Source of the DNA: Escherichia phage ekra
Direction: 5' to 3' (one strand)
Length of the DNA stretch: 64,000 bases
Sequence record: MN850644.1
Part shown: positions 53,215 to 63,741 of the stretch, piece by piece
How the letters are laid out: every line of letters begins with the position of its first letter
Position numbering within the stretch: position 1 is the stretch's first letter
Program-made: the position numbers and the translations under genes
The notes under the pieces: model-generated
The model's database searches: none
What the model was told of the DNA's origin: nothing
The model's input: the letters and a program-made list of their open reading frames with translations, nothing else

Positions 53215-61212
<7,998 letters not shown>

Positions 61213-61213
<1 letters not shown>

Positions 61214-61452
61214 TACATTTTTCCTGCTCTTCTAAGTTCGTTGTAAGCAATTTCCTCTTTATACGACCTCTGAATTTCAAGAAATTGTCTCAATGATAAT
61301 AAATCAGAGAATGTCATAGCAAAGAGTTGGTCAAGTGTTTCTTTACACCCTTCCATACCATAAATAGCAAGCACAAATTTCATCTCGTCTGCTTCTTCAT
61401 AGGTTGCCTCTACAGCAGCATCAGTTAGTGGTGTCTGTAGAGTGTTACCCAT
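61213..61452 (-). CDS. Tail assembly chaperone (distal ORF of chaperone pair)
   Basis: Position between tube candidate and tape measure; abuts upstream ORF within 2 nt in another frame. Confidence 0.4.
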
Positions 61453-61454
61453 GT

Positions 61455-61853
61455 TTACTGAGAAGTTAGGCTTTTGAAAATGCTTGCTTCGAAAAAACTT
61501 CCGAAGTTTGCCTCCAGCGCAAATGCTAAGTAATCAATAAATTCACCATAGTTTGCTTGGAAGTATGTATCAATATTAAGTGGGAAGTCATCAACAGTTG
61601 CCCCTTGAAATAACAGGGTAGCCATTTCTTCAAGGTTGATTTCTTCAATTCTGTCAAAACAAGCTTCAACAAGTTCTTTAAATGGAACCATTGGAGCTTC
61701 TTTCTTATCTTTATCAGTCAGACTTGATAGCATCTGTGCAAAAGTTGGAACAACAATTTTACCCAACTTCATAGACATCTTAATACCATCTCTTGCCCCA
61801 AGCAGAACGATATTTACTTTCTTACCATTAATTACTCTAGATTCTGTTTTCAT
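61455..61853 (-). CDS. Tail assembly chaperone (proximal ORF)
   Basis: Position; 132 aa. Confidence 0.4.
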   Translation of the reverse strand: MKTESRVINGKKVNIVLLGARDGIKMSMKLGKIVVPTFAQMLSSLTDKDKKEAPMVPFKELVEACFDRIEEINLEEMATLLFQGATVDDFPLNIDTYFQANYGEFIDYLAFALEANFGSFFEASIFKSLTSQ

Positions 61854-61886
61854 TGTGATTCCTTAATACTTTTAAAAGAAACAAAA

Positions 61887-61916
61887 AAGGGGAAGACCTT
61901 TTAAAGTCTCCCCCTT
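61887..61916 (-). terminator. Strong hairpin (gggggagac tttaaaa ggtcttcccc) plus TTTTTT on minus strand after tube gene
   Basis: Read directly. Confidence 0.55.
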
Positions 61917-61926
61917 ATAGGATTTA

Positions 61927-62373
61927 TTAAACACTTGACGCTGGAATTGTTGAAGTGTAGTCTAGCTTCTCACAACCAAAAATCCAAGTTTTAGAGTTCT
62001 GGTCACGACCAAGTTCAATCTGTGGTAATTCCTGCAACCAAGCATTAATACCAGTTGCCAGAACAGAGCCTGATGGGTCGTAGATTACGAAGTTAGAAGA
62101 GATATCTTCTTCAAGTTCCATATTGTCTTGTTTAGCTTGAATTGCAGAAAGCATCTGGTTAGAGAGAGAAGTCTGCATTAGCTCAATCTCAATAGTACCT
62201 GTCTTGTCTGCATTTCGTGTCAGAGCAACCTGACCACCTGCACCAACAACTGGTGTCACAAGTGGTGATGTTCTCTGTAGACGCAAGAATGAGTCTGGAG
62301 CAAAGCCTTCAATAGCAATGCCGTTCCAGCTACATACAACGTCTTTAGGGGAATATTGCTGATACATAGCCAT
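61927..62373 (-). CDS. Tail tube protein candidate
   Basis: 148 aa, placed between sheath candidate and chaperones, followed by terminator. Confidence 0.4.
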   Translation of the reverse strand: MAMYQQYSPKDVVCSWNGIAIEGFAPDSFLRLQRTSPLVTPVVGAGGQVALTRNADKTGTIEIELMQTSLSNQMLSAIQAKQDNMELEEDISSNFVIYDPSGSVLATGINAWLQELPQIELGRDQNSKTWIFGCEKLDYTSTIPASSV

Positions 62374-62388
62374 TCCAATTTACCTCTA

Positions 62389-63741
62389 TTATTCGTAAGC
62401 CACTGTACCTTTCAAGTCAACATCCAAGATAGCCCCTGCTAAGATACCTGCGAAGGTAACATCTTTCAGGATACGTGCTTTCTTGTCTGCTAAAGCAACT
62501 TGAGAGGCTTTAGGAACATTAACTGTGTAAGATGACAGGAAGTTTCTGTTGACTGCTCTTTGCAGAGAGGTTTCAATGACTTGACGAATACGGGTAATAC
62601 CAGTATCATCATAAGTAATCTTACCACCCTTCTGGTTAATTAGCAAGTCTCTCAGAGAAGTTTTCAGGTCTGATTCTAACCAGTCAACACCACGGACGAT
62701 ATCAATCCATTCCCCACCAGAAGTAATCCCTCTACGAACCACTGGAACACCACCATCAAGGTCAATAAAGTTACAGTGACGTACATCTAAAGCAGACTTC
62801 TGAATACTTGTCAGAGGTCTCTGATTAGATGGTTGTAGAGAAGCTGCTACGCCAGTTAGCTGAGCATTACCCCAAGCAATTGAGCCTGCATCATATGGAG
62901 CACCATAAGCAATGTATGCCATCTCTGGATAATCTTCTGCTGCTGCGTGATGCCACAAGCAAACTGTACGAGTGTACATATTCTTAGCAAGCTGTGCTGG
63001 AACATCATTTGCACTGGCTAATTCTGTACCTTGTAGGGCTGTTACATCGGAGTTAGCCGTAAAGAAGATTTTCTTACGAGCCTGAATCTCAGAAGCCATT
63101 GCTAAGACAAACTGTTGAGTTCTGTCTTCTGCTGCAATGAAATACCAGTCAGTAGAGTAAGCTTCGATAGCTGCCAGAGCAGTTGCTGCTGTATCAGCAG
63201 TTGTACTTGCAATATATACAGTCTGTGCTGTGGTTGTTACTTTCACAAAGTCATTATCACCAGCTTTGGTAATAATCATTGTGGCAGAGCCATTGCTACC
63301 AGTTACATTCACAGAAACCTTATCTTTGATTGTTGGGTCAGCTTCAATCTGTGTTTTAAACTGTTGCAACACTACCTCAGCAGTGTCTGAATCTTGTGCT
63401 GTGTACTGGTATGGTTGAGAAATTCCACCGCCAACAGCTACAGTAATTGAGTAGTCTGTACTTTCGGTAACGGCATCAGGAATTGATACAGTGTACTGCA
63501 TAGCGCGTCTACCGATATAAAGCTGAGTTACTTTAGGAGTCTGACTCCAAAGTTGTTTAGCAGCCTTATATGCAGCAGTATTCTCATCGAAATCTTCAGC
63601 AACTTCAGTTAAGGAAGTGTAACCACGCACTCTTTCTTCAAAGTTATCTGTTGAAGCTAAGAATAGTGGCAAACCAAAACCTTCTCTTGTAGTTCCTGCG
63701 GTGTTCAATGTAATATCTACATTAACAATTGGATTCCACAT
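62389..63741 (-). CDS. Tail sheath protein candidate
   Basis: 450 aa, immediately upstream of tube candidate; by synteny only. Confidence 0.4.
   Translation of the reverse strand: MWNPIVNVDITLNTAGTTREGFGLPLFLASTDNFEERVRGYTSLTEVAEDFDENTAAYKAAKQLWSQTPKVTQLYIGRRAMQYTVSIPDAVTESTDYSITVAVGGGISQPYQYTAQDSDTAEVVLQQFKTQIEADPTIKDKVSVNVTGSNGSATMIITKAGDNDFVKVTTTAQTVYIASTTADTAATALAAIEAYSTDWYFIAAEDRTQQFVLAMASEIQARKKIFFTANSDVTALQGTELASANDVPAQLAKNMYTRTVCLWHHAAAEDYPEMAYIAYGAPYDAGSIAWGNAQLTGVAASLQPSNQRPLTSIQKSALDVRHCNFIDLDGGVPVVRRGITSGGEWIDIVRGVDWLESDLKTSLRDLLINQKGGKITYDDTGITRIRQVIETSLQRAVNRNFLSSYTVNVPKASQVALADKKARILKDVTFAGILAGAILDVDLKGTVAYE

What the first reader, a model, noticed from the sequence alone, without database searches (positions are those of the whole stretch)
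61213..61853. Abutting ORF pair upstream of the tape measure gene: possible programmed frameshift chaperone
The 132-aa ORF stops 2 nt before the ATG of the 79-aa ORF, which is in a different frame, directly upstream of the tape measure gene and downstream of a strong terminator after the tube candidate. This mirrors the G/GT tail-assembly chaperone arrangement, though here the downstream ORF has its own start codon, so independent translation is equally possible.
Basis: inference. Interest (0 to 1): 0.4.

Follow-up and report, generated by a model that had tools for sequence, protein, structure and literature searches.

The report
Phage tail chaperone frameshift site
The two abutting small genes ahead of the tape-measure gene of this Felix O1-like phage are almost certainly one tail-assembly chaperone gene read in two ways through a conserved -1 ribosomal slip on TTTTTTC, an ordinary feature already predicted for this phage family.

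Summary
On the minus strand, a 132-aa ORF (61853-61455) ends 2 nt before the ATG of a 79-aa ORF (61452-61213). That ORF lies in the -1 frame, between a terminator after the tube gene and the tape-measure gene. The window is a Felixounavirus, 98.8% identical to Escherichia phage garuso.

ORF1 is a tail assembly chaperone (Pfam PF21822). Thirteen codons before its stop sits an in-frame slippery heptamer, T_TTT_TTC (61497-61491). A -1 slip there gives a 213-aa fusion.

The heptamer, its frame and an open -1 frame running to the tape-measure start are kept in all 78 distinct alleles examined. These form 24 lineages below 60% identity, with G+C of 35-65%; the joint chance from codon usage is about 4e-22.

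The ORF2 ATG has no Shine-Dalgarno sequence. It is mutated to ATA in one Felixounavirus contig, absent in sister genera, and at a non-homologous position in Mooglevirus. No conserved downstream RNA structure was found. A GGAGG lies 13 nt upstream and may stimulate slipping.

The frameshift is annotated in Mooglevirus records and was described for Andersonviridae in 2025. I found no report of an experimental test. Verdict: real, but ordinary and already known.

The parts
61887..61916 (-). Intrinsic terminator between the tube gene and the chaperone gene (stem-loop AAGGGGGAGAC...GGTCTTCCCCTT followed by TTTTTG). It probably lowers expression of the chaperone and tape-measure genes relative to sheath and tube.
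   Evidence: 13 pairs, 6 G-C, loop of 4, T tail. The same feature is annotated 'terminator' in the Michonne record and others.
61455..61853 (-). ORF1: the short tail assembly chaperone form (TAC-N, the equivalent of lambda gpG). 132 aa, 14.8 kDa, with its own Shine-Dalgarno sequence AAGGAA at 61864-61859.
   Evidence: PF21822 Phage_TAC_15, E=1.2e-19, 71.5 bits against a cut-off of 22; phrog_1613, E=8e-49. Shine-Dalgarno -6.1 kcal/mol; molecular mass.
61511..61515 (-). Internal Shine-Dalgarno-like GGAGG (codons Leu-Glu-Ala, CTG GAG GCA), 13 nt 5' of the heptamer. Candidate 5' stimulator of the -1 shift (inferred).
   Evidence: Sequence. The Glu codon is GAG in 18 of 24 diverged lineages against 9.9 expected from local codon usage (Poisson-binomial P=5e-4). 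Internal Shine-Dalgarno stimulators act 9-14 nt 5' of -1 shift sites (PMC5009743).
61491..61497 (-). Slippery heptamer T_TTT_TTC in the ORF1 frame (AGT TTT TTC = Ser119 Phe120 Phe121): the proposed -1 shift site.
   Evidence: Conserved in frame in all 78 distinct alleles, 24 lineages. The Michonne record annotates 'ribosomal slippage (47149)' inside the homologous heptamer, record positions 47152-47146. Only 2 TTTTTTC occur on the minus strand of the whole window.
61455..61491 (-). Dual-coding overlap. The zero frame encodes the ORF1 tail EASIFKSLTSQ*; the -1 frame encodes RSKHFQKPNFSV.
   Evidence: The 41 nt around the slip site (about 61508-61468) are the only stretch that blastn still aligns, at 92.7%, to Erwinia phages whose proteins are about 43% identical.
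61213..61491 (-). The -1 frame segment translated after the slip: 92 codons plus stop. Joined to ORF1 residues 1-121 it gives a 213-aa, 24.3-kDa fusion (TAC-NC, the equivalent of lambda gpGT).
   Evidence: for the fusion sequence and mass. The CL1 record, which has T7, encodes this 213-aa fusion in one frame; it is 99.1% identical (211 of 213 residues) to the predicted fusion. T domains are homologous across lineages and end at the tape-measure start.
61213..61452 (-). ORF2 as called from its ATG (79 aa). Best read as the C-terminal (T) domain of the fusion, not as a separate gene.
   Evidence: phrog_4963, E=3e-55; no Shine-Dalgarno sequence (+0.7 kcal/mol). ATG is ATA in L021. ATG absent in other genera.
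59006..61213 (-). Tape measure protein gene (735 aa). Its ATG overlaps the stop of the -1 frame (TAATG).
   Evidence: PF20155, E=2e-16; phrog_4036, 1461 bits.
61927..62373 (-). Tail tube gene (148 aa), context.
   Evidence: PF11681; phrog_280, E=1e-47. It lies directly after the sheath gene.
62389..63741 (-). Tail sheath gene (450 aa), context.
   Evidence: PF11863; phrog_205 tail sheath, E=4e-122.

Best explanation
ORF1 and ORF2 are one recoded tail-assembly-chaperone gene of a Felix O1-like myovirus.

Most ribosomes translate ORF1 to its TAA stop and make the 132-aa short chaperone. A minority slip one base back when Phe codons TTT and TTC of the heptamer T_TTT_TTC (61497-61491) occupy the P and A sites. 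They re-pair on TTT TTT and continue in the -1 frame (CGA AGC AAG ... = R S K H F Q K P ...) to the stop that overlaps the tape-measure ATG. The result is a 213-aa fusion: ORF1 residues 1-121 plus 92 residues containing all of 'ORF2'.

By analogy with lambda gpG/gpGT (inferred, not tested), the shared N domain coats the tape-measure protein. The rare T domain recruits tube subunits to start polymerisation, and neither protein ends up in the virion.

The shift appears to rely on the heptamer itself, possibly helped by the GGAGG 13 nt upstream pairing with 16S rRNA. No downstream RNA structure is involved.

Shown: the anatomy, the homology and the conservation. Inferred: that slipping occurs, how efficient it is, and what the two domains do.
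For: 1. Anatomy. ORF2 is in the -1 frame, the frame is open from 12 codons before the heptamer to the tape-measure start, and the heptamer is in X_XXY_YYZ register.

2. Identity. ORF1 matches PF21822 Phage_TAC_15 and phrog_1613; ORF2 matches phrog_4963 'tail assembly chaperone'. The gene order is sheath, tube, terminator, chaperone, tape measure.

3. Conservation.
- All 78 distinct alleles have NNT TTT TTY in register: window, GenBank Ounavirinae genera, Vequintavirinae CR8 and IMG/VR contigs.
- In 24 lineages below 60% aa identity (G+C 35-65%), the Ser/Cys codon always ends in T (AGT, TCT or TGT) and the first Phe codon is always TTT. About 4 of 24 would be expected from codon usage; the joint probability is about 4e-22.
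- The search seed fixed only the amino acids, not the codons.

4. The -1 frame stays open 34-91 codons past the ORF1 stop in every allele, while the +1 frame usually closes before it. Stops in the -1 frame occur 0-1 codon 5' of the heptamer in six alleles from four lineages, but never 3' of it. This pins the shift to the T run.

5. T domains are homologous across lineages (motif W/M-S/T-L/F-x-D-L...LD/E). In most lineages they end within a few bases of the next long ORF.

6. The ORF2 ATG is dispensable: it has no Shine-Dalgarno sequence, is ATA in L021, and is absent in phiEa21-4, P778, SarahDanielle and Wc4-1.

7. In E. coli, U_UUC is the second most shift-prone tetramer, and heptamers made entirely of pyrimidines are favoured (PMC4066793).

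8. Independent annotators reached the same reading for Michonne and Moogle and for 231 Andersonviridae genomes (PMC12846349).
Against: - No protein evidence for the fusion exists, in this window or in any paper I found.
- No conserved 3' stimulatory structure: RNAalifold predicts 0 pairs, local folding is no better than shuffles (z=0.04), and there is no Rfam match. Efficiency may therefore be low. That is what lambda G/GT needs (about 30:1, PMC5009743).
- The S-F-F motif is conserved at the protein level, so part of the T run could reflect protein constraint. Protein constraint does not explain the invariant synonymous choices.
- In Felixounavirus the junction ATG is kept in most alleles, so some stand-alone T domain cannot be excluded.
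- The lineages share ancestry, so the joint probability is an upper-bound style argument, not an exact P value.
Confidence: 0.85

Rival explanations
1. Two separate genes. ORF2 is translated on its own from ATG 61452 by termination-reinitiation coupling to ORF1 (TAA-AC-ATG), giving a free 79-aa protein. The heptamer would be incidental.
For: - The ATG lies 2 nt after the ORF1 stop.
- It is present in nearly all of the Felixounavirus alleles in the set (all but L021).
- Most GenBank Felixounavirus records, and PHROG 4963, treat ORF2 as a separate 79-aa gene.
Against: - No Shine-Dalgarno sequence: +0.7 kcal/mol, weaker than about 97% of genes in the window and weaker than the median random ATG.
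- ATG is ATA in the 87-kb Felixounavirus contig L021.
- No in-frame ATG, GTG or TTG at the junction in phiEa21-4, and no ATG in P778, Hafnia or Pectobacterium relatives.
- The Mooglevirus Met aligns with a Leu of Felixounavirus.
- This reading does not explain the invariant T6 run or the stop-free -1 frame between the heptamer and the ORF1 stop in 78 alleles.
Confidence: 0.05
2. The same fusion is made, but by transcriptional slippage. RNA polymerase adds an extra U while copying the T6 run, giving a U7 mRNA subpopulation that encodes the fusion in one frame.
For: - The site is a homopolymer run.
- A weak hairpin followed by the T run resembles a pause or terminator signal (61517-61501).
- The CL1 GenBank record carries T7 at exactly this place. 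This shows a +1 T change gives the fusion and that polymerases or sequencers stutter here.
Against: - The run is only 6 T in 73 of 78 alleles and never longer than 7. From my own knowledge, bacterial RNA polymerase slips efficiently on runs of about 9 or more; this was not tested here.
- If run length were selected it would be expected to drift longer. Instead the register N_NNT_TTT_TTY is fixed.
- A ribosome-specific element, the Shine-Dalgarno-like GAGG at 13 nt, is enriched (P=5e-4).
Confidence: 0.06
3. Chance arrangement. The heptamer and the frame relation have no function, and the region after ORF1 is a decayed or unrelated small ORF.
For: In a single genome an in-frame X_XXY_YYZ heptamer in a 25-codon overlap is expected about 0.1 times.
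Against: The heptamer, the frame, the open -1 frame and a homologous T domain are conserved across 24 lineages with G+C of 35-65%. ORF2 matches a PHROG family at E=3e-55.
Confidence: 0.01

Closest known systems
Phage lambda gpG/gpGT tail assembly chaperones and the conserved frameshift of dsDNA phage tail genes (Levin 1993; Xu, Hendrix and Duda 2004, 2013, 2014; as summarised in PMC5009743)
   Same: Two overlapping ORFs lie directly upstream of the tape-measure gene. [quoted passage not shown] No downstream structure is needed.
   Different: - The heptamer is T_TTT_TTC, not G_GGA_AAG.
- The host phage has a contractile tail, so the gene upstream is a tube gene behind a sheath gene.
- I did not test for sequence similarity to gpG or gpGT; the Pfam family matched here is PF21822.
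- Function is inferred here, whereas it was shown for lambda.
Annotated frameshifted chaperones of Mooglevirus phages Michonne, Moogle and Mijalis (PMC4591319, PMC4319497, PMC5543628; record NC_028247)
   Same: Orthologous genes, about 75% aa identity for ORF1 and 81% at the nucleotide level over the locus. The heptamer is identical at the homologous codons, and the annotated slippage coordinate falls inside it.
   Different: ORF1 is 133 aa and ends 3 codons later. The junction Met is at another position. Those records join the CDS, whereas most Felixounavirus records, including the closest relative garuso, list two separate genes.
TAC-N/TAC-NC locus of Vandenendeviridae (phage Adele) and Andersonviridae (PMC12846349, 2025)
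   Same: The same claim for the same family. That paper reports a conserved poly-T motif (GTTTTT) near the 3' end of TAC-N and an uninterrupted -1 frame, in 56 Vandenendeviridae alleles and in 231 Andersonviridae genomes.
   Different: That work is also purely comparative. In my wider set the base before the T run is G or C (AGT, TGT or TCT). I add the -1 stop positions flanking the site, the Shine-Dalgarno-like GAGG at 13 nt, and the evidence on the ORF2 start codon.
E. coli dnaX and IS-element -1 frameshift signals
   Same: A heptamer plus an internal Shine-Dalgarno-like element within the 9-14 nt 5' window (PMC5009743).
   Different: dnaX also uses a 3' stem-loop, and IS elements often use a 3' stem-loop or pseudoknot. 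None is detectable here. The heptamer is U-rich rather than A_AAA_AAG.

Membership tests
G/GT-type frameshifted tail assembly chaperone (Xu, Hendrix and Duda 2004 arrangement) | Gene pair located between the major tail/tube gene and the tape-measure gene | tested here: met
   The order on the minus strand is sheath, tube, terminator, ORF1, ORF2, tape measure.
G/GT-type frameshifted tail assembly chaperone (Xu, Hendrix and Duda 2004 arrangement) | Second ORF in a shifted frame that overlaps the 3' end of the first, with no stop between the shift site and the second ORF | tested here: met
   The -1 frame is open from 12 codons 5' of the heptamer to 61213.
G/GT-type frameshifted tail assembly chaperone (Xu, Hendrix and Duda 2004 arrangement) | Slippery sequence in the zero-frame register within the overlap | tested here: met
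   T_TTT_TTC at 61497-61491 is the only in-frame X_XXY_YYZ heptamer in ORF1.
G/GT-type frameshifted tail assembly chaperone (Xu, Hendrix and Duda 2004 arrangement) | Arrangement conserved in diverged homologues | tested here: met
   78 of 78 alleles, 24 of 24 lineages below 60% identity.
G/GT-type frameshifted tail assembly chaperone (Xu, Hendrix and Duda 2004 arrangement) | Short and fused proteins both made, with the fusion as the minor species | not testable with these tools
   Needs a western blot or mass spectrometry of infected cells. I found no such data in the literature searches.
G/GT-type frameshifted tail assembly chaperone (Xu, Hendrix and Duda 2004 arrangement) | N domain binds the tape-measure protein, T domain binds the tube protein, both are required for tail assembly and absent from virions | not testable with these tools
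   Inferred from the lambda model only (PMC5009743).
Pfam PF21822 Phage_TAC_15 | Score above the family's gathering threshold over most of the model | tested here: met
   71.5 bits against a cut-off of 22; residues 9-124 match model positions 1-124 of 127.
dnaX/IS-type stimulated -1 frameshift signal | Internal Shine-Dalgarno-like sequence 9-14 nt 5' of the heptamer | tested here: met
   GGAGG at 61515-61511, spacer of 13 nt. GAG is enriched at this codon, 18 of 24 lineages, P=5e-4. Its function was not tested.
dnaX/IS-type stimulated -1 frameshift signal | 3' stem-loop or pseudoknot 5-9 nt after the heptamer | tested here: not met
   RNAalifold predicts 0 conserved pairs. Local minimum free energy z=0.04. 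The only good hairpin starts 44 nt downstream and is not conserved.
Transcriptional slippage site | Long homopolymer run (about 9 or more A/T for bacterial RNA polymerase; from my own knowledge) | tested here: not met
   T6 in this window. The range is 6-7 across the 78 alleles.

The most novel reading that the evidence does not exclude
The recoding signal may be a two-part cassette with no RNA structure: GAGG, 13 nt, then U6Y. In this reading the internal Shine-Dalgarno-like element is a functional 5' stimulator. It would have been frozen, together with the heptamer, across Andersonviridae, Vequintavirinae and many uncultured phage lineages with G+C of 35-65%.

A weaker variant is that Felixounavirus makes three products from this locus: the short form, the fusion, and a free T domain by reinitiation at the junction ATG.
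Probability: 0.35. Interest if true: 0.3.

Novelty: already known. Interest (0 to 1): 0.15.

Why it matters
Mostly for annotation. Most of the Felixounavirus GenBank records I sampled list two separate 'tail assembly chaperone' genes. Some relatives, such as phiEa21-4 and Wc4-1, leave the T region unannotated. The evidence says the locus should be a joined CDS with ribosomal slippage at T_TTT_TTC.

For phage engineering and therapy work on Felix O1-like phages, synonymous recoding or codon optimisation through this site would be expected to break tail assembly.

The comparison also gives a clean natural example of a slip site held at the nucleotide level across very different G+C contents. It raises a testable candidate 5' Shine-Dalgarno stimulator. 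None of this changes what is known about how tail chaperones work.

Tried and rejected
- **Downstream stimulatory RNA structure.** The 108 nt after the heptamer fold to -24.7 kcal/mol (z=-1.9). The good hairpin starts 44 nt downstream and is not kept in Michonne. RNAalifold on 8 Ounavirinae sequences gave 0 pairs. A 91-nt window centred on the site gave z=0.04. Rejected.
- **Rfam.** A scan of 61100-62000 at E<=1 gave only two sub-threshold chance hits.
- **Solved structures.** A profile of ORF1 relatives against PDB sequences gave nothing below E=0.18. I did not go on to structure prediction, because the Pfam and PHROG matches already fix the identity and a model would not change the verdict.
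- **T7 or T5 variants of the site.** Exact searches of IMG/VR gave 0 contigs with T7, 0 with T5 and 23 with T6. The T7 in the CL1 record is therefore a singleton, most likely a homopolymer sequencing error.
- **Vladimirov, Gautam and Davidson 2022** (T4-like chaperone genes) is not in the held library. I know it only through citing papers.
- **Sharma et al. 2014** (PMC4066793). Its text gives no explicit efficiency for U_UUU_UUC; only general rules could be taken from it.
- **Hairpin before the T run.** I considered the terminator-like hairpin just before the T run as a functional element. It has 6 pairs, 2 of them G-U, and is not conserved in phiEa21-4. Not pursued.

Full report
**What is in the sequence**

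All genes in this part of the window run on the minus strand. In order they are:
- a 450-aa tail sheath gene (63741-62389; phrog_205, E=4e-122);
- a 148-aa tube gene (62373-61927; phrog_280, PF11681);
- an intrinsic terminator (61916-61887; 13 pairs, 6 G-C, T tail);
- ORF1 (61853-61455, 132 aa);
- ORF2 (61452-61213, 79 aa);
- a 735-aa tape-measure gene (61213-59006; PF20155, phrog_4036).

The ORF1 stop TAA (61457-61455) is followed by AC and then the ORF2 ATG. The ORF2 stop overlaps the tape-measure ATG (TAATG). ORF2 is in the -1 frame relative to ORF1, and that frame is open for 25 codons upstream of the ORF1 stop.

**Where the window comes from**

The 4.7-kb sheath-to-tape-measure segment is 98.8% identical to Escherichia phage garuso. 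It matches 297 phage records, nearly all Felix O1-like. The genus is Felixounavirus, in Ounavirinae, Andersonviridae. ORF1 is a tail assembly chaperone: PF21822 Phage_TAC_15 at 71.5 bits against a cut-off of 22, and phrog_1613. ORF2 matches phrog_4963, also labelled tail assembly chaperone, over its full length.

**The slip site**

The ORF1 codons AGT TTT TTC (Ser119 Phe120 Phe121) form T_TTT_TTC in X_XXY_YYZ register at 61497-61491, 13 codons before the stop. It is the only in-frame heptamer of this type in ORF1.

A -1 slip there continues as CGA AGC AAG CAT ... = R S K H F Q K P N F S V N M G N T L Q ..., through all of ORF2. The product is a 213-aa, 24.3-kDa fusion, against 14.8 kDa for ORF1.

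In this genome alone the case is only suggestive. In-frame heptamers occur at 0.004 per codon in the window's genes, so about 0.1 is expected in the overlap. T6 runs are rare on the coding strand, however: 9 in 64 kb, and only 2 TTTTTTC.

**Comparative test**

I read the locus in GenBank relatives from five Ounavirinae groups:
- Mooglevirus: Michonne
- Suspvirus: mistaenkt
- Kolesnikvirus: phiEa21-4
- Yersinia phage P778
- Hafnia phage SarahDanielle and Pectobacterium phage Wc4-1

I also read Felix O1 itself and the Vequintavirinae phage CR8, whose ORF1 is 27% identical. A further 76 IMG/VR loci were found with a protein-level seed.

After removing duplicates there are 78 distinct alleles. Every one has NNT TTT TTY in register: AGT, TCT or TGT, then TTT, then TTC (73 alleles) or TTT (5 alleles).

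Clustered at 60% amino-acid identity, these make 24 lineages with G+C from 35% to 65%. Local codon usage predicts that only about 4 of 24 would have both a T-ending Ser/Cys codon and TTT for the first Phe. All 24 do, and the joint probability is about 4e-22. The seed fixed the amino acids [SC]-F-F but not the codons, so this is a test of synonymous sites. Shared ancestry means the number is not an exact P value.

In every allele the -1 frame runs 34-91 codons past the ORF1 stop, while the +1 frame usually closes before it. In six alleles from four lineages a -1-frame stop lies 0 or 1 codon 5' of the heptamer. None has one on the 3' side. This localises the shift to the T run.

The -1-frame domains are homologous across lineages, with the motif W/M-S/T-L/F-x-D-L...L-D/E. 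In most lineages they end within a few bases of the next long ORF.

At the DNA level, the 41 nt around the site (about 61508-61468) are the only stretch that blastn still aligns, at 92.7%, to Erwinia phages whose proteins are about 43% identical.

**Is the ORF2 start codon real?**

Four observations argue against it.
[quoted passage not shown] The median for 62 genes in the window is -6.1, ORF1 scores -6.1 and the tape-measure gene -5.1. All ATGs on the strand have a median of -1.5.
- The 87-kb Felixounavirus contig L021 has ATA in place of this ATG, with the heptamer and frame intact.
- phiEa21-4 has no ATG, GTG or TTG in the -1 frame at the junction, by direct reading of the codons. P778, SarahDanielle and Wc4-1 have no ATG there. 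Annotators left the region blank in phiEa21-4 and Wc4-1.
- The junction Met of Mooglevirus aligns with a Leu of Felixounavirus.

The ATG is therefore lineage-specific and dispensable. Low-level reinitiation in Felixounavirus cannot be excluded.

**Stimulators**

No conserved RNA structure follows the site. RNAalifold predicts 0 pairs on eight Ounavirinae sequences. Local folding is no better than shuffles (z=0.04). There is no Rfam match. The one decent hairpin starts 44 nt downstream and is not conserved.

Upstream, GGAGG (61515-61511; CTG GAG GCA) lies 13 nt from the heptamer. That is inside the 9-14 nt window in which internal Shine-Dalgarno sequences stimulate -1 shifts (PMC5009743). The Glu codon is GAG in 18 of 24 lineages against 9.9 expected (P=5e-4). 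This is a candidate stimulator, not a shown one.

In E. coli, U_UUC is the second most shift-prone tetramer, and heptamers of uniform base class are favoured (PMC4066793).

**Mechanism and function**

The best reading (confidence 0.85) is a programmed -1 ribosomal frameshift that gives a short abundant chaperone and a rare long fusion. By analogy with lambda gpG/gpGT, the shared N domain would bind the tape-measure protein. The T domain would recruit the tube protein. The ratio between the two forms matters for lambda tail assembly (PMC5009743). That functional part is inference.

Transcriptional slippage on T6 would give the same protein. It is less likely because the run is short, never exceeds 7, and is accompanied by a ribosome-specific element. 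Only cDNA sequencing can exclude it.

**Comparison with what is known**

This is the classic conserved frameshift of tail assembly genes. For this very family it has been annotated in Michonne; the slippage coordinate 47149 lies inside the homologous heptamer at 47152-47146. It is also stated for Michonne, Moogle and Mijalis (PMC4591319, PMC4319497, PMC5543628). A 2025 comparative study reports a conserved GTTTTT motif and an open -1 frame in 231 Andersonviridae and 56 Vandenendeviridae alleles (PMC12846349). I found no experimental demonstration for any Felix O1-like phage.

Most of the Felixounavirus records I sampled still list two separate genes.

**Verdict**

The frameshift reading is much stronger than independent translation. 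The feature is real but ordinary and already described. Its practical value is a corrected annotation and a warning against synonymous recoding of this site. The small additions here are the flanking -1 stops that pin the site, the Shine-Dalgarno-like element, and the evidence that the ORF2 ATG is dispensable.

Noticed in passing
L007 (Escherichia phage CL1, OK040806.1) locus 301-942; homologous to window 61853-61213: This one GenBank record has T7 instead of T6 at the slip site. The chaperone is therefore annotated as a single in-frame 213-aa protein, 99.1% identical (211 of 213 residues) to the predicted frameshift fusion. Exact searches of IMG/VR found 0 contigs with T7, 0 with T5 and 23 with T6. 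It is probably a homopolymer sequencing error; if real, the phage would make only the long form.
   Followed up: partly
L021 (IMGVR_UViG_3300045988_004167, 87 kb); homologous to window 61452-61450: This natural Felixounavirus contig has ATA in place of the ORF2 ATG, while the heptamer and the -1 frame are intact.
   Followed up: yes
window 61515-61511 (minus strand): A Shine-Dalgarno-like GGAGG lies 13 nt 5' of the heptamer. The underlying Glu codon is GAG in 18 of 24 diverged lineages against 9.9 expected (P=5e-4). I did not see it mentioned in the passages I read of the papers on this locus.
   Followed up: partly
window 61517-61501 (minus strand): The terminator scan also flags a weak hairpin (6 pairs, 2 of them G-U) that ends just before the T6 run, so the slip site looks like a feeble intrinsic terminator or pause site. 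It is not conserved in phiEa21-4.
   Followed up: partly
window 61453-61398 (minus strand): A predicted hairpin (part of a -24.7 kcal/mol fold, z=-1.9) includes an 8-bp stem CUCUACAG/CUGUAGAG and buries the ORF2 ATG in its base. The stem has two mismatches in Michonne, so it is probably not functional.
   Followed up: partly
window 61479-61476 (minus strand): A second shift-prone tetramer in register, U_UUC (codons ATT TTC), lies 4 codons after the heptamer inside the overlap. It is conserved in most Ounavirinae examined but not in the more distant lineages. A slip there would give an almost identical fusion.
   Followed up: no
whole window: Strong strand asymmetry of homopolymers: on the plus strand there are 44 T6 runs and 9 A6 runs. 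On the mostly coding minus strand, A6 is therefore about five times commoner than T6.
   Followed up: no
L004 (phiEa21-4) 970-1205; L009 (Wc4-1) 1124-1358: In these GenBank records the whole T-domain region between the chaperone gene and the tape-measure gene is left unannotated, because it has no start codon.
   Followed up: yes
L048, L057, L061, L064, L065, L073, L075 and others (IMG/VR contigs, G+C 60-65%): Uncultured high-G+C phage contigs carry distant relatives of this chaperone (23-30% identity) with the same T6 slip site. Their ORF1 tails after the site are much longer (21-46 codons) and low in complexity, rich in Ser, Thr, Pro and Ala.
   Followed up: partly
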